Part shown: positions 19,959 to 26,400 of the stretch, piece after piece | How the letters are laid out: every line of letters starts with the position of its first letter | Numbering within the stretch: position 1 is the first letter of the stretch | NCBI GenBank assembly: GCA_001768975.1 | Contig: MEND01000029.1 | Coordinates: 1-47,307 of the forward strand | Direction: 5' to 3' | DNA from: Bacteroidetes bacterium GWA2_31_9 | Lineage (GTDB): Bacteria > Bacteroidota > Bacteroidia > Bacteroidales > GWF2-33-38 | DNA length: 47,307 nt | The notes under the pieces: model-generated | Told to the model about the DNA's origin: nothing | Databases searched by the model: none | The model's input: the letters and a program-made list of their open reading frames with translations, nothing else | Position numbers and translations under genes: made by a program

Positions 19959-20453
19959 ATGGAAAAGAAAATCAGGAAAGTAGTTAAATATGAGAACCTA
20001 ACACCAGAGCTACTTAAGGAAATAAGTAAAAAATATCCAAATGGATTTAACGACCATTTAATAAAAGTAAATGGTCCATCAAATACTTTTTTTTATGCTT
20101 TTATGCTTGAGATGCCTGATGCTAGCTATCTTATAAAAGTTAATGTAAAGATTGATAGTGGGTTTGATGATGATGAGGATGAGGAAGAAGATGACAATTC
20201 AGGAATAGGACGTGAAGATGATAATTTTGCAGCTTCTGAAGAAGATGATGATGAAAAAGTAAAGCCAAGCAAGCCTATCGATGATGACGACGATGATGAC
20301 GATGAAGATGACGACGACGAGGATGACGATGAAGATACAGATGATGACGAGGATGACGAAGATGAAGATGATGAAAAATCTTCTAAAGGAAAAGCAAAAC
20401 CAAAAGCAAAAGATGTAAAAAAGAAAGTTGCTCCTAAAAAAACTAAAAAATAG
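19959..20453 (+). CDS. Hypothetical protein with a globular N-terminal domain, an approximately 90-aa poly-Asp/Glu tract and a Lys-rich C-terminal tail
   Basis: The ATG ORF is preceded by an A/T-rich promoter-like region. The residue composition is directly visible (DDDDDDDDEDDDDEDDDEDTDDDEDDEDEDDE...KGKAKPKAKDVKKKVAPKKTKK). Confidence 0.6.
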   Translation: MEKKIRKVVKYENLTPELLKEISKKYPNGFNDHLIKVNGPSNTFFYAFMLEMPDASYLIKVNVKIDSGFDDDEDEEEDDNSGIGREDDNFAASEEDDDEKVKPSKPIDDDDDDDDEDDDDEDDDEDTDDDEDDEDEDDEKSSKGKAKPKAKDVKKKVAPKKTKK

Positions 20454-20653
20454 TATTTAATTTTTTTTCTCTTCGACTTTAGGGCAATGTCATTAAGTTA
20501 AGCCAAAAAAACTTGAATTTGAATAACCTCCGATGCAATTGCATTGGCGTTAACTTAATAATCAATTTTTTATGGAAATTTAAAAATCAAAGATTTTTTC
20601 TCAGCGTTTATGAGCATTGTGTAATAAATTATTTTTTTTTGCAAAAATTGGTG

Positions 20654-21049
20654 TTAAAACTGATTATTGTCAAGTGAGATAATCATCTCATTTATAACAT
20701 CATTATTTAGTGGCTTAGTGTAATAATTATTAACTTTACTAAATAATTTTGCCTTATCGTAATCTCTATCATCTACAGAGGTTGTGAGCATATTTAGAGT
20801 AATGTTACAATCTAAATTTTGATATTGTTCCAGAAATTCAAAACCATTCATAATCGGCATGTTAATATCAAGTAGAATTAAATCGGGCATTTTGTTTTCA
20901 GAATTTTTGAGATAAATCAATGCGTCTTTCCCATTAAGAAATTCAATTATATTCATTTTGCTATCATAATTTGTTAAAAACATTTTGTTTAAAAAATTAT
21001 TTGCAGTGTCGTCATCAATAAGCATAATGAGTAGGTCTGATTTTTTCAT
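20654..21049 (-). CDS. Single-domain response regulator (CheY-like receiver)
   Basis: 131 aa. It contains MLIDDD, PDLILLDINMPIMNG, LTTS and a conserved K (YYTKP). Confidence 0.85.
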   Translation of the reverse strand: MKKSDLLIMLIDDDTANNFLNKMFLTNYDSKMNIIEFLNGKDALIYLKNSENKMPDLILLDINMPIMNGFEFLEQYQNLDCNITLNMLTTSVDDRDYDKAKLFSKVNNYYTKPLNNDVINEMIISLDNNQF

Positions 21050-21075
21050 ATGTTTTTTTTGTTAATAGTTAAAGA

Positions 21076-21096
21076 GTTTGAGGTTTGAGGTTTGAG
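21076..21096. repeat. Tandem heptamer GTTTGAG x3
   Basis: Directly visible. Single or double copies of the same heptamer occur at about 21228-21236, 22162-22168 and 22344-22357. Confidence 0.8.
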
Positions 21097-21100
21097 GTTC

Positions 21101-21188
21101 ATTGTTCTATTGTTCTATTGTTCTATTGTTCTATTGTTCCATTGTTCTATTGTTCCATTGTTCTATTGTTCTATTGTTCTATTGTTCT
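21101..21188. repeat. Tandem octamer array ATTGTTCT x11 (two ATTGTTCC variants)
   Basis: Counted by hand: 11 contiguous 8-bp units, followed by degenerate GTTTCTAT units. The array lies 52 bp upstream of the start codon (21049) of the minus-strand receiver gene. Confidence 0.9.
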
Positions 21189-21474
21189 ATGTGTTTTTTT
21201 CTATGTTTCTATGTGGTTAAGAGTGGTTTGAGGTTTAACTTCGTTGAGCTCGCAAGCTCGGTTGAAGTTGGCTACGAAGTTTCCTTACCGCTAAGTTGCA
21301 GTGATTCAAAATTTTATTTTAAATTTTACTTCTTAAATATTACTTTAATTGGGTTTGAAGTTGGCTACGCAGTTCATTCCTCATTTCTTCATTCATAAAT
21401 ACATAAATTCTTAAATTTCAAAATTCTAAATTTTTTTAGTGTTTATTATAATTGTGGACGTTTCATTTTTTGGT
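21189..21474. repeat. Copy 1 of an approximately 290-bp duplicated intergenic spacer containing a GC-rich hairpin
   Basis: Near-identical to 22300-22615 (gtggttaagagtggtttgaggttt aacttcgttgagctcgcaagctc.gttgaagttggctacgaagtttccttaccgctaagttgcagtga ... gggtttgaagttggctacgcagttcat.cctcatttcttcattc.taaat.cataaattcttaaatttcaaaattctaaatttttttagtgtttattataatt.tggacgtttcatttttt). Confidence 0.85.
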
Positions 21475-22131
21475 TTATTTTTTATTTAAATTATGTGCAG
21501 TTTCTTTAATCACATTATCAAGTTCAATTGAAGAATTTTTCAAATGTTTTAAAATTTCCGAAAGTTCATCTTTATTTTTGCAAACAGTATCTATTAAATT
21601 TACAAAACCTAATATATTAGCTAGTGGTTTTCTTAAATTGTGTGATGTAATAAAAGCATATTCACTTAATTGACGTGTTCGCTCTTCTACAATTTCTTCA
21701 AGATTTTGATTTAAATCCTGCAATTCTAATGCTTTGGTTCTTAAATCAATCTGAGTATTAACTCTTATAGTTAGTTCCTCATTATTAAATGGCTTTGTTA
21801 TATAATCAATTCCACCAAGGTTGAAGCCTTTTAATATACTTTCTGTATCGATAGCCGATGTCAAAAAAATTACAGGAATATCTTTTGTTTTTGCATTTGA
21901 TTTCAATATTTTACAAACATCAAAGCCACCCATTTCAGGCATTTGTATATCAAGTAAAATTAAATCGGGCATTTTGTTTTCAGAATTTTTGAGATAAATC
22001 AATGCTTCTTTTCCATTAAGAAATTCAATTATTTTTATTTTGCAATCATAATTTGTTAAAAACATTTTGTTTAAAAAGTTATTTAAAATGTCGTCATCAA
22101 CAAGCATAATGAGTACTTCTGATTTTTTCAT
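21475..22131 (-). CDS. Receiver + DHp (HisKA-like) protein lacking a catalytic ATPase domain; mosaic paralog
   Basis: The REC domain has MLVDDD, PDLILLDIQMPEMGG and ITKP. A coiled coil follows, then the H-box ITSHNLRKPLANILGF and a second DHp helix. The protein ends there at 218 aa, with no N/G1/G2 boxes. Confidence 0.85.
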   Translation of the reverse strand: MKKSEVLIMLVDDDILNNFLNKMFLTNYDCKIKIIEFLNGKEALIYLKNSENKMPDLILLDIQMPEMGGFDVCKILKSNAKTKDIPVIFLTSAIDTESILKGFNLGGIDYITKPFNNEELTIRVNTQIDLRTKALELQDLNQNLEEIVEERTRQLSEYAFITSHNLRKPLANILGFVNLIDTVCKNKDELSEILKHLKNSSIELDNVIKETAHNLNKK

Positions 22132-22171
22132 GTGTTTATATTTTTGTTAATAGTTAAAGGGTTTGAGGTTC

Positions 22172-22299
22172 ATTGTTCTATTGTTCTATTTTTCTATTGT
22201 TCTATTTTTCTATTGTTCTATTGTTCTATTTTTCTATTGTTCTATTTTTCTATTGTTCCATTGTTCTATTGTTCCATTGTTCTATTGTTCTATTGTTCT
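22172..22299. repeat. Tandem octamer array, 16 units (ATTGTTCT, ATTTTTCT and ATTGTTCC variants)
   Basis: Counted by hand: 16 contiguous 8-bp units, 41 bp upstream of the start codon (22131) of the minus-strand REC-DHp gene. Confidence 0.9.
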
Positions 22300-22615
22300 A
22301 TGTGTTTTTTTCTTTGTTTCTATGTTTCTATGTTTCTATGTGGTTAAGAGTGGTTTGAGGTTTGAGGTTTAACTTCGTTGAGCTCGCAAGCTCAGTTGAA
22401 GTTGGCTACGAAGTTTCCTTACCGCTAAGTTGCAGTGACGCAAAGTTTTATTTTTAATTTTACATTTTACTTCTTAAATATTACTTTAATTGGGTTTGAA
22501 GTTGGCTACGCAGTTCATGCCTCATTTCTTCATTCCTAAATCCATAAATTCTTAAATTTCAAAATTCTAAATTTTTTTAGTGTTTATTATAATTATGGAC
22601 GTTTCATTTTTTGGT
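22300..22615. repeat. Copy 2 of the duplicated intergenic spacer
   Basis: See 21189-21474. It has the same order of sub-elements, with small indels and point differences. Confidence 0.85.
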
Positions 22616-23260
22616 TTATTTTTTATTTAAATTATGTGCTGTTTCTTTAATAATATTATCAAGTTCGGTTGATGAATTTTTCAAATATTTTAATATTTCA
22701 GGAAACTGCTCTTTTTTATCTATTGATTGTTCAAGTATTGAAATAAAACCTATGATATTTGCCAATGGTTTTCTTAAATTGTGTGATGTTATAAAAGCAT
22801 ATTCATGTAATTGGTGTGTTCGCTCTTCTACAATTTTCTCAAGATTTTGATTTATTTTTTGCAATTCTAATGTTTTGGCTCTTAAATCAATATGAGTATT
22901 AACTCTTATAATTAGTTCCTCATTATTAAATGGTTTTGTTATATAATCCATTCCGCCTAGCTTAAAGCCTTTTACTATACTTTCTGTATCGGTAGCTGCT
23001 GTTAAAAATATTACTGGGATATCTTTTGTTTTGGCATTTGATTTCAATATTTTACAAACATCAAAGCCATCCATTTCGGGCATTTGTATATCAAGTAAAA
23101 TTAAATCGGGAGGCTGAATATTTACCGATTGCAAAGCTTTTGCGCCTGACGATGCAACATTTATATTGTATCCTTTTTCGTACAAAATTTTTCCAAGTAC
23201 TTGTAGGTTTTTAGAATTATCATCGACTATTAGTATTAGATTTTTTTTTATTGATGCCAT
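22616..23260 (-). CDS. Receiver + DHp (HisKA-like) protein lacking a catalytic ATPase domain
   Basis: 214 aa. REC has IVDDN, PDLILLDIQMPEMDG and ITKP. The H-box is ITSHNLRKPLANIIGF. There is no HATPase_c. The C-terminal two-thirds are near-identical to the 21475-22131 product. Confidence 0.85.
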   Translation of the reverse strand: MASIKKNLILIVDDNSKNLQVLGKILYEKGYNINVASSGAKALQSVNIQPPDLILLDIQMPEMDGFDVCKILKSNAKTKDIPVIFLTAATDTESIVKGFKLGGMDYITKPFNNEELIIRVNTHIDLRAKTLELQKINQNLEKIVEERTHQLHEYAFITSHNLRKPLANIIGFISILEQSIDKKEQFPEILKYLKNSSTELDNIIKETAHNLNKK

Positions 23261-23472
23261 ATTGGTTATAGTTTACTAATTACAGATTACTAATTAGTGC
23301 TTCTAAGAAAACTGTATATTTAAAAAAATACCAAATTTCAAACTTCAAAAAACAAATAAATTTCAAATTACAATTACCTAATATCCAAACTGTTTTGAGA
23401 ATTGTTTTTTTGAGAATTGGAATTTATTTGACATTTGTTTTTTGTTTTTTGTAGTTTTCTTACTAACACTAG

Positions 23473-26400
23473 TTATTGAGTTATAAATTTATTTAAGCTT
23501 TTTAAGGTTATATGAATTTTTTCGATGTTAAATGAGTTTATATAATTCTCTAATTTTGAGGAATATTCATTAATTTCTGAATTATTATATGCTTCATTAA
23601 ATTTTACTAATTTTTGAACAAAATCCTGCAACTCATCAATATTTAAAACATTTTGAAGTTTTGCTAATAAAGGCGTAAACTCACTAATCATTTCCTTTTT
23701 AGCATAAATAGAAAGCTTATTTTCCTTAGGAATTGCTAACTCATCTAATGTAATATTACTATCTGATAATTCTTCGTAAGGTAAATATTTGATAAGTTTT
23801 TCTAATAATTCATTTTTATAGATTGGCTTAATAAGAAATTCATCAGCTACTTTTTGAAACTCATCTCTCTGTTGTTTCATTCCCGATGCCGAAAGGGCAA
23901 TAACAGGAATATGTTTAAGTAAATTATCTGATTTTAAAATATTAATTGCAGTAAAACCATCCATTACAGGCATTTGCATATCCATTAATATTAAATCGGG
24001 TTTGTTTTTTCGTGTCGCATTAATGCACTCTGCACCATTCAATGTTTCAATAATTGTAACGTTCAAAGGTTCGAGATAACCCTTTATTACCTGACGATTC
24101 GATAGAATATCTTCTGCCATTAATATAATCGGATTGTGAAATTTAATATTCAATAATTTGTGATTGTTTTTATTTTCGTCGATATGGAATGACGATATTT
24201 CCAAATCAAAAAGAGATACACTAAAAGTTGAACCAAAACCAATTTTACTTTCAACAGAAATTTTACCACCTATCAACTCAACCAATCGTTTGGTTATGCT
24301 TAAACCAAGCCCTGTTCCGCCATATTTGTTTCGATTTTTGTGAATTACCTGAATAAATGGGTCAAATATTATATTTAACTGGTCTTCAGGAATGCCAATA
24401 CCAGTGTCTTTAACTACAAAAATTAAATCTACTTTACTGCCATGTATATCTTTTGGAATAATATTTACAGCAATTTCTACAGAACCGATGTTTGTGAACT
24501 TAACAGCATTTCCAATTAGATTAAATAAAATTTGTCTTAAAAATTTTTCATCTGTAATTAGGCTATCGGGAATATCTTTTGAAATAAGAATATTTAATGT
24601 TATTCCTTTTTCTTTTGCTTTCATTTGAAAAACAGACTTTAGCTCCAATATAATGCTATTCAAATTAACTGGCTGATAATCTATTACCATTCGCCCTGAT
24701 TCTATTTTTGAAAGGTCAAGTATATCATTTATAATAGAAAGAAGTACTTTACTACTCTGCATTATATTATCAAGATATTCGGTAAATACCTTTTGCCCTG
24801 TAGTTTTTTCTTTAAGGATACTTGAGAACCCAACAATGGCATTTAATGGTGTACGTATTTCGTGGCTCATGTTTGCCAGAAACTCGCTTTTCATGCGATT
24901 TGCATCTTCGGCAGATTCTTTAGATTTGATTAATTCTTCTTCTGTTCTTTTTAATTTAGTTACATCTTCTTTCATTGCGATAAAATTGGATATTGTACCA
25001 TTATCATCAAGCACTGGTGCAATAGTATTTTGTTCCCAATACAATTCGCTAGATTTATTTTTGTTGCAAATAATGCCTTTCCATGCTTTACCCGAAAGAA
25101 TAGTATCCCACAATTCTTTATAAAAAGCATTATCATGTATGCCAGATTTAAGTAAAGTGGTTTTGTTTCCTAAAAGTTCTTCTTTTGTATATCCTGAAAT
25201 GCTTAAAAAATTATTATTTATATACTCAATTGCGCCATCGGGCTTTGTAATAACTATTCCCACTGGATTTTGCTCAACAACAACAGCCATTTTTTTAAGT
25301 TCATTTTCAAATCTTTTTCGTTCACTTATATCTCTAATGATGGACTGATAAGTTCCATCCGGCATTTTTTTAGCATTTATTTCAACTGGGACTTCACTAT
25401 TGTCTTTTCTTATGAGGTTGCGTTCTACATGTACAATTTCTCCCAAGTTAAGCTGATTATATCTTAAAGGATTATATTTTAAATCTTCCTTTTTGAATAA
25501 ATCTTCCTTTTTCATATTTAAAAGTTCATCTTTTGAATATCCTGTAAGGAGCAATGAAACATTGTTAATCCGAATGAAATTTCCATTAATATCAAACTGA
25601 AGTATAGAATCTACGGCATCTTCGATGAGATTTCTGAATTTTTCTTCACTTTCAGAAAGTTCATTTTCAATATTAATTCGTTCTTCTATTTCTTCTTTTA
25701 ATTCAATATTTTTAGCATTCAATTCTTCTGTTCTTTGACTTACAGTTATCTCTAGATTATCTAAGGTTTTCTGTAATTCATCTTCGCTATTTTTCCTGAC
25801 AATAATTCCCGCCAATGTATTGGCAATGGCATGTAAAAAATTAATTTCTGTTTTATTTTTAATATGGTTTGGTTTTAAGTAAATATTGATTACACCAAGA
25901 GTTTTACCTGCATAAACAATTGGGATACAATAATGTCCATGTTCATGAATTCCATTATAAGTAATTTTATGTTCTTCATTTAATCTGTTTGAAAATTGGT
26001 TTTCCTGCGTTGATGCAGCCCTTCCACAATGGCACAATCCGAACGGAACAGATTTGCAGGCTTTTTTTATGTATTCTCCAAGATTTTTTTCAACTACCAT
26101 TATAAGTGCATCCTCCTTCTTATTAGCAAGGAAAATACATCCTTTTGATTCAAGGTTAAGCGAAGGAACATTAATAATAAGGTCGAAAGTTTGTTTCAGT
26201 AATTCTATAAGGGGAACATTTTTAATAGATAATTGTAATATCGAATTTAATGTTGTTTGAATATAATAATTAAATTTAAAGAGAACTTCTTCCTTCTTAC
26301 GGTCAGTGATGTCTTTCACAAAACCAAGAATTCTTGTGTCTGATAGTTTAACTCCATCAATAGACCATATTTTGTCTGTGCTGTTTTTATGTCTATAATG

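What the first reader, a model, noticed from the sequence alone, without database searches (positions are those of the whole stretch)
21076..22299. Octamer (ATTGTTCT) tandem arrays of different length in front of paralogous receiver genes
Seen: 11 units at 21101-21188 and 16 units at 22172-22299. The second array is interspersed with ATTTTTCT variants, and both are bordered by GTTTGAG heptamer repeats whose copy number also differs (3 versus 1 proximal, 1 versus 2 distal). Each array lies 41-52 bp upstream of the start codon of a minus-strand gene. On the coding strand it reads (AGAACAAT)n. I found no TAnnTTTG box between array and start codon, so the arrays may be transcribed as part of a long polycistronic RNA. 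Inference: the arrays may be length-variable, tuning expression through slipped-strand mispairing. They may instead be an iterated binding platform for a DNA- or RNA-binding protein. The 8-bp period rules out in-frame coding repeats and CRISPR.
Basis: partly seen in the sequence, partly recalled or inferred. Interest (0 to 1): 0.6.

Follow-up and report, generated by a model that had tools for sequence, protein, structure and literature searches.

The report
Dispersed octamer repeats duplicated with gene
The two octamer arrays are real, but they are two copies of one intergenic block from a genome-wide family of short tandem repeats, copied when a receiver gene was tandemly duplicated, and nothing found here shows them acting as a dedicated, fast-switching control for those genes.

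Summary
Observation confirmed. (ATTGTTCT)11 lies at 21101-21188 and a 16-unit array at 22172-22299, with the heptamer differences as described.

The gene-specific reading is not supported.
1. The same arrays, in the same module order, occur at about 18 loci on 16 contigs beside unrelated genes. The genome holds 275 tandem arrays of period 7/8, against 4 in a composition-matched simulation.
2. The two arrays are paralogous. Gene B is a chimera of A (N-terminus) and C (C-terminus), the product of unequal crossover that duplicated one ancestral spacer.
3. Unit numbers are identical in four other metagenome assemblies of this locus, and at three other array loci. They differ between the paralogous spacers, and the repeat content differs between congeneric species.
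4. Array context and orientation match genome background.

(ATTGTTCT)n arrays also occur in about 45 other assemblies, mostly Bacteroidota MAGs. Each spacer carries a 27-nt hairpin element (76-82 genomic copies) inserted precisely into heptamer arrays. Together these resemble cyanobacterial STRR and SDR repeats.

Best reading (about 0.6): non-coding, slippage-prone dispersed repeats carried passively in an operon spacer.

The scan had already noted the mosaic receiver gene.

The parts
21101..21188 (+). Octamer array A, 11 units in the order T T T T C T C T T T T (T = ATTGTTCT, C = ATTGTTCC). It reads (AGAACAAT)n on the coding (minus) strand.
22172..22299 (+). Octamer array B, 16 units in the order T T X T X T T X T X C T C T T T (X = ATTTTTCT). 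It shares the C T C T T T end with array A. A 5-unit block T T X T X is duplicated.
21076..21099 (+). Proximal GTTTGAG heptamer run of spacer A (3.4 copies).
22161..22171 (+). Proximal GTTTGAG heptamer of spacer B (1.5 copies).
21189..21225 (+). Junction module ATGTGTTTTTTTCTATGTTTCTATGTGGTTAAGAGTG, made of degenerate TTCTATGT octamers. It follows the octamer array at most loci in this genome.
22300..22352 (+). The same junction module in spacer B, with two extra period-8 units.
21226..21236 (+). Distal heptamer of spacer A (GTTTGAGGTTT). It is the host array of the 27-nt insertion.
22353..22370 (+). Distal heptamers of spacer B (2.7 copies).
21237..21263 (+). 27-nt hairpin mini-element AACTTCGTTGAGCTCGCAAGCTCGGTT, inserted in a heptamer array.
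22371..22397 (+). Second copy of the 27-nt hairpin element, with one substitution.
21050..21474 (-). Spacer A between genes B and A (425 nt). It is a mosaic of dispersed repeat modules.
22132..22615 (-). Spacer B between genes C and B (484 nt). It is the paralogue of spacer A, 97.2% identical outside the repeat tracts.
20654..21049 (-). Gene A, a 131-aa stand-alone receiver.
21475..22131 (-). Gene B, 218 aa (receiver plus HisKA-like helix). It is a chimera: codons 1-54 resemble A, and the rest from PDLILLD onwards resembles C.
22616..23260 (-). Gene C, 214 aa (receiver plus HisKA-like helix). It has no octamer array upstream.

Best explanation
The arrays belong to a lineage-specific, genome-wide family of non-coding intergenic short tandem repeats.

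In this uncultured groundwater Bacteroidota genome, intergenic spacers are filled with mosaic blocks. The order is (GTTTGAG)n, (ATTGTTCT)n, a TTCTATGT-type junction, (GTTTGAG)n, then often a 27-nt hairpin insertion and further short repeats.

One such block lay between two receiver genes, C and A. Unequal crossover at the conserved PDLILLD-coding stretch produced C - spacer - B (A N-terminus fused to C C-terminus) - spacer - A. That event made two copies of the block.

Afterwards the tracts changed length by replication slippage or unequal exchange:
- octamers, 11 against 16 units;
- heptamers, 3 against 1 and 1 against 2;
- the junction, plus two units.

The arrays are probably transcribed as unstructured, A-rich (AGAACAAU)n spacer RNA within a kinase-C-B-A operon. 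They are tolerated there rather than serving as a gene-specific switch.

Shown: the anatomy, the dispersal, the duplication and chimera, stability between near-identical populations, and turnover between congeners.

Inferred: slippage as the mechanism, co-transcription, and lack of a specific function.
For: 1. Dispersal. There are 140 pattern hits and 22 arrays on 16 contigs, with conserved flanking modules, next to unrelated genes. Several contigs end inside an array.

2. A genome-wide property. The genome has 275 arrays of period 7/8 against 4 in a Markov simulation, and 86% lie outside long ORFs.

3. No special placement.
- Contexts are 75% co-directional, 12% convergent and 12% divergent. 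The baseline for gene pairs is 76/12/12.
- The sense strand is A-rich in 61% of arrays. The baseline for co-directional spacers is 62%.

4. Duplication.
- B matches A at 92% over the first 54 codons and C at 88.6% from PDLILLD onwards. The other halves cannot be aligned.
- The two spacers are collinear over their whole length.
- The unit orders share the C T C T T T end.

5. Stability.
- Three assemblies covering 6.6-24.7 kb and one 1.5-kb contig, all from groundwater metagenomes, have no indel at this locus. The three large ones carry 0-5 SNPs.
- Arrays on contigs C18, C194 and C285 are likewise identical. This holds even in an assembly whose flanks are 1% divergent.

6. Turnover. The argB-OTCase spacer is about 24 nt without repeats in the same-family genome. 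It is 270 nt with other modules in the same-genus genome, and 215 nt with seven octamers here.

7. Transcript context. There is no terminator-like site, no TAnnTTTG on the coding strand, and the array is unpaired in the RNA fold.
Against: - The two spacers are 97-100% identical from 35 nt before the upstream stop codon to the downstream start codon. The duplicated coding flanks have dS of 0.18 and 0.38. The spacer has therefore been homogenised by gene conversion, or it is under constraint, which could mean a function.

- In other genomes, arrays whose sense strand reads AGAACAAT come within 60 nt of a start codon in 20 of 39 cases. Antisense arrays do so in 2 of 20 (Fisher p = 0.002). This shows an mRNA-level constraint at least.

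- The same octamer, a shared left flank (TATATGGTTAA) and the identical 27-nt element recur in distant Bacteroidota. Pure local slippage does not explain that.

- All the assemblies compared come from one site and are consensus sequences. Minority length variants would be invisible.

- The ORF calls behind the context statistics are crude.
Confidence: 0.6

Rival explanations
1. Functional mRNA leader or spacer. (AGAACAAU)n is an unstructured, A-rich stretch that helps Shine-Dalgarno-independent initiation or re-initiation on the downstream cistron in Bacteroidota. Alternatively it is a multivalent platform for a single-strand RNA-binding protein.
For: - Sense-oriented arrays abut start codons (20/39 within 60 nt) while antisense ones do not (2/20).
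- In 15 of 16 such cases with a called upstream neighbour, the array lies between co-directional genes, in some cases filling nearly the whole spacer. One example is L078, rarA-(AGAACAAT)21-pyrD.
- The array is unpaired in the RNA fold.
- The spacer is more conserved than synonymous sites of its flanks.
- That Bacteroidota initiate without Shine-Dalgarno pairing and favour A-rich leaders is from my own knowledge.
Against: - The orientation bias equals the background A-richness of sense strands in spacers (61% against 62%).
- Arrays also occur in antisense, convergent and divergent contexts.
- Neighbouring genes share no function.
- The same-family genome expresses the orthologous operon with a 24-nt spacer.
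- No expression data could be obtained.
Confidence: 0.15
2. Contingency locus. Slipped-strand mispairing changes unit number at high frequency and switches or grades expression of receivers A and B.
For: - The tracts are the most changeable part of the duplicated unit: five length differences against 9 substitutions.
- Arrays differ between congeners.
- The arrays lie upstream of genes.
Against: - Unit numbers are identical in all independent assemblies at 5 arrays.
- The arrays are interrupted by variant units, with at most 4 perfect units in a row.
- No promoter boxes flank the arrays, so no spacing could be altered.
- The same arrays occur next to housekeeping genes and after stop codons.
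Confidence: 0.08
3. DNA-level signal. The iterated octamer is bound by a nucleoid or regulatory protein, or acts as a polar sequence for recombination or segregation. Alternatively it is the landing pad, or the product, of an unknown enzyme that also moves the 27-nt element.
For: - The same octamer arrays are dispersed in about 45 assemblies, about 80% of them Bacteroidota.
- The identical 27-nt element is inserted, phase-preserving, in heptamer arrays here and in octamer arrays in other Bacteroidales MAGs.
- The left flank is shared across families.
Against: - 0 of 400 sampled genomes of the phylum carry three tandem units, so no conserved cellular function can depend on the array.
- No candidate protein was found. 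The Y1 transposases of this genome are flanked by other hairpins.
- No control octamer could be scanned, so the recurrence may partly reflect base composition.
Confidence: 0.12
4. Assembly artefact or coding repeat. Either the arrays are mis-assembled simple sequence, or they encode the hydrophobic IVLLFYCS peptide read from the plus strand.
For: - The plus strand is open through the arrays.
- Several contigs of this assembly end in arrays.
Against: - Four other assemblies (record names indicate different assembler settings) give the same sequence.
- Unit-number differences are not multiples of three units.
- The plus-strand ORFs run antisense into the neighbouring gene.
- No conserved start or stop context exists across loci.
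Confidence: 0.02

Closest known systems
STRR (short tandemly repeated repetitive) heptamer sequences of heterocystous cyanobacteria (Mazel et al. 1990; cited from my own knowledge)
   Same: - Many dispersed intergenic arrays of 7-nt units in several unit families per genome.
- No known function.
- Lineage-specific abundance.
   Different: - The host is a Bacteroidota MAG.
- An 8-nt family (ATTGTTCT and relatives) is as prominent as the heptamers.
- Arrays are joined in a fixed module order, and that block is itself sometimes tandemly repeated (C249, C215).
SDR, small dispersed repeats of Nostoc and relatives (Elhai et al. 2008, Genome Res 18:1484). The reference was confirmed in PMC3116915. 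The paper itself is not held, so its content is from my memory.
   Same: The 27-nt element in both spacers is a 21-27-nt-class hairpin present in 76-82 near-identical copies. It is inserted inside tandem heptamer arrays without target duplication. Deleting exactly 27 nt restores the 7-nt phase.
   Different: - The phylum and the sequence differ.
- The element is also found inside octamer arrays in other genomes.
- Mobility is inferred from copy identity and precise insertion only; no empty site was demonstrated.
Phase-variable simple sequence repeats (contingency loci) of Haemophilus, Neisseria and Campylobacter, including intergenic heptamer or tetramer tracts (for example PMC12721329, listed)
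   Same: A tandem short-unit tract upstream of a gene, and a tract that mutates by unit gain or loss.
   Different: - No population polymorphism was seen.
- The tract is interrupted.
- It does not lie between promoter boxes or in a reading frame.
- It is one of hundreds of similar arrays beside unrelated genes.
BIME/REP mosaic elements and REPINs (PMC3116915)
   Same: Extragenic mosaic of short repeated modules including a hairpin, often between co-directional genes. This genome does encode Y1 (RAYT/IS200-like) transposases.
   Different: - The bulk of the block is tandem 7/8-nt repeats, not palindromic units.
- The Y1 genes are flanked by other hairpin families, and none lies near the 27-nt element.

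Membership tests
Phase-variable SSR (contingency locus) | Unit number varies within or between closely related populations | tested here: not met
   There is no indel at the two window arrays in 4 other assemblies, nor at arrays on C18, C194 and C285. The test is at consensus level only, and all assemblies come from one site.
Phase-variable SSR (contingency locus) | The tract lies in a reading frame or between promoter elements, so that length sets expression | tested here: not met
   The tract is not in a conserved ORF, and no TAnnTTTG occurs on the coding strand in 20400-23600.
Phase-variable SSR (contingency locus) | A long uninterrupted tract | tested here: not met
   The longest perfect run is 4 units in either array.
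Phase-variable SSR (contingency locus) | Expression changes with unit number | not testable with these tools
   This needs reporters or RNA data.
STRR-type dispersed short tandem repeats | Many dispersed copies of the same short tandem unit in one genome | tested here: met
   There are 22 octamer arrays on 16 contigs, and 275 arrays of period 7/8 overall against 4 simulated.
STRR-type dispersed short tandem repeats | Predominantly intergenic | tested here: met
   237 of 275 arrays lie outside long ORFs.
STRR-type dispersed short tandem repeats | Heptanucleotide unit, cyanobacterial host | tested here: not met
   The unit in question is an octamer, although heptamers flank it. Identical contigs come from groundwater metagenomes, and related arrays come from Bacteroidota MAGs.
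SDR-like mini insertion element (for the 27-nt hairpin) | 21-27 nt, many near-identical dispersed copies | tested here: met
   There are 76 copies with at most 1 mismatch and 82 with at most 3.
SDR-like mini insertion element (for the 27-nt hairpin) | Precise insertion into tandem heptamers without target duplication | tested here: met
   Phase continuity is 0.80 after deleting 27 nt, against 0.2-0.53 for other deletion lengths.
SDR-like mini insertion element (for the 27-nt hairpin) | Demonstrated mobility (filled against empty orthologous sites) | not tested
   Only copy numbers were compared: 76 here, 1 in the same-genus genome, 0 in the same-family genome.
REP/REPIN with RAYT | The repeat flanks or pairs with a Y1 (RAYT) transposase gene | tested here: not met
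   There are 7 Y1_Tnp matches, and none has the 27-nt element within 1.5 kb. They carry other hairpins.
MITE | Terminal inverted repeats plus target-site duplication | tested here: not met
   The blocks are bounded by direct heptamer runs, not inverted repeats, as seen by inspection of 18 loci. No systematic TIR search was run.
CRISPR | Repeats of 21-48 nt separated by unique spacers | tested here: not met
   The units are head-to-tail 8-nt repeats with no spacers.
Known RNA family (Rfam) | A match to a curated covariance model | tested here: not met
   There was no match at E up to 1 in 20400-23600.

The most novel reading that the evidence does not exclude
Some Bacteroidota carry a counterpart of the cyanobacterial STRR/SDR system that spreads horizontally.
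- Arrays of a shared octamer (AGAACAAT) and of heptamers colonise intergenic and intercistronic spacers.
- They serve as landing pads for an identical 27-nt hairpin 'nano-element'.
- That element inserts precisely, without target duplication, through an as yet unknown trans-acting enzyme.

On this reading the window's spacers are two snapshots of that system, and their unusual conservation reflects ongoing conversion by it.
Probability: 0.2. Interest if true: 0.7.

Novelty: new variant of a known kind. Interest (0 to 1): 0.4.

Why it matters
For the receiver genes it matters little. The arrays are best read as passengers, and the more interesting local event is the unequal crossover that made a chimeric receiver.

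At genome scale it is worth a note. I did not find a description of dispersed 7/8-nt tandem arrays with precise mini-insertions outside cyanobacteria in the library searched.

Here the arrays fill spacers inside operons. They expand a 24-nt spacer to more than 200 nt, recur with the same octamer in about 45 assemblies (mostly Bacteroidota MAGs), and break short-read assemblies.

If the 27-nt element is truly mobile, it would give a second, independent system in which to look for the unknown machinery behind such very small mobile DNA.

Tried and rejected
- Rfam scan of 20400-23600: no match.
- Sigma-70 promoter scan: not above shuffles (18 found against 18.8 expected). No terminator-like site was found.
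- Orthologue of the receiver cluster in the same-genus and same-family genomes: none closer than 52% identity, and synteny ends at the acidic-protein gene. The locus itself could therefore not be compared.
- Link of the 27-nt hairpin to Y1/RAYT transposases: rejected.
- Viral origin: only 2 viral contigs carry four tandem units.
- Orientation bias as evidence of function: 26 against 10 sense arrays looked significant. I rejected it after the own-genome baseline showed the same A-rich sense bias for all spacers.
- Enrichment between co-directional genes: rejected, because it equals the baseline.
- Literature: no paper in the library holds the tandem octamer. No description of octamer or heptamer intergenic arrays in Bacteroidetes was found. 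Elhai et al. 2008 is not held.
- Plus-strand peptide (IVLLFYCS)n: rejected on frame and context grounds.
Full report
THE OBSERVATION

Both arrays are present as described.
- Tandem Repeats Finder reports period-8 arrays at 21097-21195 (score 168) and 22168-22339 (score 221).
- Read unit by unit, 21101-21188 is T T T T C T C T T T T and 22172-22299 is T T X T X T T X T X C T C T T T. Here T = ATTGTTCT, C = ATTGTTCC and X = ATTTTTCT.
- The arrays start 51 and 40 nt upstream of the start codons of two minus-strand genes. Both genes have a receiver domain (Pfam Response_reg, E = 7e-16 and 1.5e-23).
- No TAnnTTTG occurs on the minus strand anywhere in 20400-23600.

The sequence is not an artefact. 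Contigs from four other metagenome assemblies cover the locus. They are JGI 3300025308, ERZ28564302, ERZ27254745 and ERZ27254751. None has a single indel, and the three large ones carry 0-5 SNPs over 6.6-24.7 kb.

WHY THERE ARE TWO ARRAYS IN FRONT OF TWO RECEIVER GENES

Three receiver genes lie head to tail behind a 1556-aa PAS-rich hybrid kinase. They are C (22616-23260), B (21475-22131) and A (20654-21049).
- The spacers C-B (484 nt) and B-A (425 nt) are collinear from end to end.
- B matches A over its first 54 codons (92% at nucleotide level) but not C. From the PDLILLD-coding stretch onwards it matches C (88.6%) but not A.
- This is the product expected from unequal crossover between A and C at the conserved receiver motif in an ancestral C-spacer-A arrangement. 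It gives C-spacer-B(A/C chimera)-spacer-A.
- An earlier first-reader note of this scan (e1-3300022) reached the same reading.

The 'paralogous receiver genes each with an array' are therefore one spacer copied once. The unit orders confirm common descent. Both arrays end in C T C T T T, and array B has gained a mutated unit X and then duplicated a 5-unit block T T X T X.

One unexpected point remains. Outside the repeat tracts the two spacers are 97.2% identical. Sliding identity stays at 97-100% from about 35 nt before the upstream stop codon to the downstream start codon. Yet the duplicated coding flanks have dS of 0.18 (A/B) and 0.38 (B/C).
- The spacer has therefore been homogenised after the duplication (gene conversion between copies 1.1 kb apart), or it is constrained.
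- Other genomic copies of the same modules are only 75-90% similar. Whatever keeps the two spacers alike is thus local to this pair.

THE ARRAYS ARE NOT SPECIFIC TO THIS LOCUS

- A search of the window's own genome (4.96 Mb, 288 contigs, 30% G+C) finds 140 hits to three tandem units. These resolve into 22 arrays at about 18 loci on 16 contigs.
- Printed side by side, most share the module order (GTTTGAG)n - (ATTGTTCT)n - ATGTG..TTCTATGT..CTATGTGGTTAAGAG - (GTTTGAG)n.
- On contigs C249 and C215 this whole block is itself tandemly repeated.
- Several contigs end inside an array.
- The neighbouring genes are unrelated in function. They include an ornithine carbamoyltransferase, a sodium:solute symporter, a DsbD-like protein and an efflux-type protein.
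- The rest of each window spacer is also built from dispersed modules.

Genome-wide, TRF finds 275 arrays of period 7 or 8 with at least three copies, in many unit families (GTTTGAG, GTTTGAA, AACAATTT, GTTGTTT and others). A 3rd-order Markov simulation of the same size gives 4. Of the 275 arrays, 86% lie outside long ORFs.

PLACEMENT

In 80 loci from other genomes I first saw a bias.
- 26 arrays between co-directional genes have AGAACAAT as the sense strand, against 10 with ATTGTTCT.
- Sense arrays come within 60 nt of a start codon in 20 of 39 cases, against 2 of 20 for antisense arrays.

The own-genome baseline removes most of the first effect.
- All period-7/8 arrays have an A-rich sense strand in 61% of cases, and ordinary co-directional spacers do in 62%.
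- The share of co-directional, convergent and divergent contexts (75/12/12) equals that of all gene pairs (76/12/12).
- The start-codon asymmetry remains. It indicates an mRNA-level constraint: U-rich antisense arrays are not tolerated next to a start.

Together with three further results, this fits arrays that are transcribed inside operons.
- There is no terminator-like site.
- There is no promoter box on the coding strand.
- The array is unpaired in the predicted RNA fold.

The ORF calls behind these statistics are my own crude ones.

VARIABILITY

Between near-identical populations nothing changes.
- The two window arrays have the same unit numbers in every assembly found, as do arrays on C18 (7 units), C194 (7 units) and C285 (23 units).
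- This includes ERZ978281, whose flanks differ by 1%.

Between species everything changes.
- The argB-OTCase spacer is about 24 nt with no repeat in the same-family genome G002.
- It is 270 nt with other short repeats and only degenerate octamers in the same-genus genome G001.
- It is 215 nt with six heptamers and seven octamers here.
- The spacer upstream of the symporter gene also carries different modules in G001.

The tracts are therefore mutable on the scale of speciation and of the local duplication: five length differences against 9 substitutions. There is no sign of the rapid switching that defines contingency loci. All the assemblies come from one groundwater site and are consensus sequences.

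WIDER DISTRIBUTION

About 35 of these are Bacteroidota in the broad sense: Bacteroidales, Saprospiraceae, Sediminibacterium, Draconibacterium, Lentimicrobiaceae, Rhodothermaceae, Balneolaceae and Chlorobiota. Several carry many dispersed arrays.
- Yet none of 400 sampled genomes of the phylum, and none of the nearest relatives, has even three units. The feature is rare and patchy.
- A left flank TATATGGTTAA is shared by this genome, its congener and Draconibacterium/Acetofilamentum loci.
- I could not scan control octamers, so how special ATTGTTCT is remains open.

THE 27-NT ELEMENT

Each window spacer contains AACTTCGTTGAGCTCGCAAGCTCGGTT, at 21237-21263 and 22371-22397.
- The genome has 76 copies with at most one mismatch.
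- Nearly all are embedded in heptamer arrays.
- Deleting exactly 27 nt restores the 7-nt phase across the junction (0.80, against 0.2-0.53 for other lengths).
- The identical 27-mer lies inside octamer arrays, again phase-preserving, in other Bacteroidales MAGs (L044, L089, L098, L106).
- It occurs once in the congener, not in the same-family genome, and in 1 of 79 other families sampled in the order.
- It folds into a hairpin of -6.6 kcal/mol, or -12.4 kcal/mol with its flank.
- The seven Y1 transposase genes of the genome are flanked by other hairpins and are not near it.

As I recall the paper, this matches the small dispersed repeats that Elhai et al. (2008) found inside tandem heptamers of Nostoc. 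The reference was confirmed in PMC3116915, but the paper itself is not held.

VERDICT

The gene-specific interpretation is mostly not supported.

The most likely account (about 0.6) has four parts:
1. The arrays are one member of a genome-wide family of STRR-like intergenic repeats.
2. That member was duplicated with a receiver gene by unequal crossover.
3. It was then resized by slippage.
4. It is carried passively in an operon transcript.

Rival readings:
- a functional A-rich leader or RNA platform (0.15);
- a DNA-level signal or landing pad tied to an unknown enzyme (0.12);
- a contingency switch (0.08).

None of these is excluded, and the tests that would settle them are listed under next steps.

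I found no description of such arrays in Bacteroidota in the library searched. I therefore rate the finding a new variant of a known kind, of moderate interest.

Noticed in passing
window 21237-21263 and 22371-22397; own genome, 76-82 copies: A 27-nt hairpin element, AACTTCGTTGAGCTCGCAAGCTCGGTT, is inserted precisely and without target duplication into heptamer arrays. The identical sequence lies inside octamer arrays of other Bacteroidales MAGs. It resembles cyanobacterial small dispersed repeats.
   Followed up: partly
window 20654-23260: Gene B is a chimera of A (codons 1-54) and C (from PDLILLD onwards), made by unequal crossover. The non-coding spacers are 97-100% identical, while the duplicated coding flanks have dS of 0.18-0.38. 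This implies later gene conversion, or constraint on the spacer.
   Followed up: yes
L147 (JGI metagenome contig Ga0208863_1047306, 1233 bp): The contig begins and ends with the start of gene B plus the left part of spacer B, 1141 bp apart, with one SNP between the two copies. In between it carries a gene that is B-like at the 5' end and C-like at the 3' end. It is either an extra macro-unit in another population or an assembly cycle.
   Followed up: partly
own genome, all contigs: The genome has 275 tandem arrays of period 7 or 8 in many unit families, against 4 in a composition-matched simulation. Several contigs end inside such arrays, so they probably cause much of the fragmentation of this assembly.
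   Followed up: partly
G000 contigs C229, C60, C131, C56, C46, C103 (L107-L113): Y1 (IS200/RAYT-like) transposase genes are flanked by their own families of short hairpin repeats, for example ccccgtcctttaggtcgggg. These look like REPtron-type arrangements and are unrelated to the 27-nt element.
   Followed up: no
window 20400-23600, minus strand: There is no TAnnTTTG box and no terminator-like hairpin across three receiver genes and their spacers, including the 212-nt spacer between the hybrid kinase and gene C. The kinase and the three receivers may form one transcription unit.
   Followed up: partly
L117 (own C18) against L132 (G002) and L133 (G001): The argB-OTCase spacer has grown from about 24 nt in the sister genus to 215-270 nt of repeats in this genus, inside what looks like an arginine-biosynthesis operon.
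   Followed up: yes
window 21391-21432 and 22532-22573: Further period-8 tracts (ATTCATAA / ATTCCTAA, 5.4 copies) and two copies per spacer of GTTGGCTACG(A/C)AGTT occur here. The latter motif also ends heptamer runs at other loci in the genome.
   Followed up: no
window 19959-20453: A 164-aa protein with an extremely acidic D/E-rich tail followed by a lysine-rich end has no Pfam match. A plus-strand ORF of similar size sits at the equivalent position next to the PhoU/PHO4 genes in the relatives.
   Followed up: no
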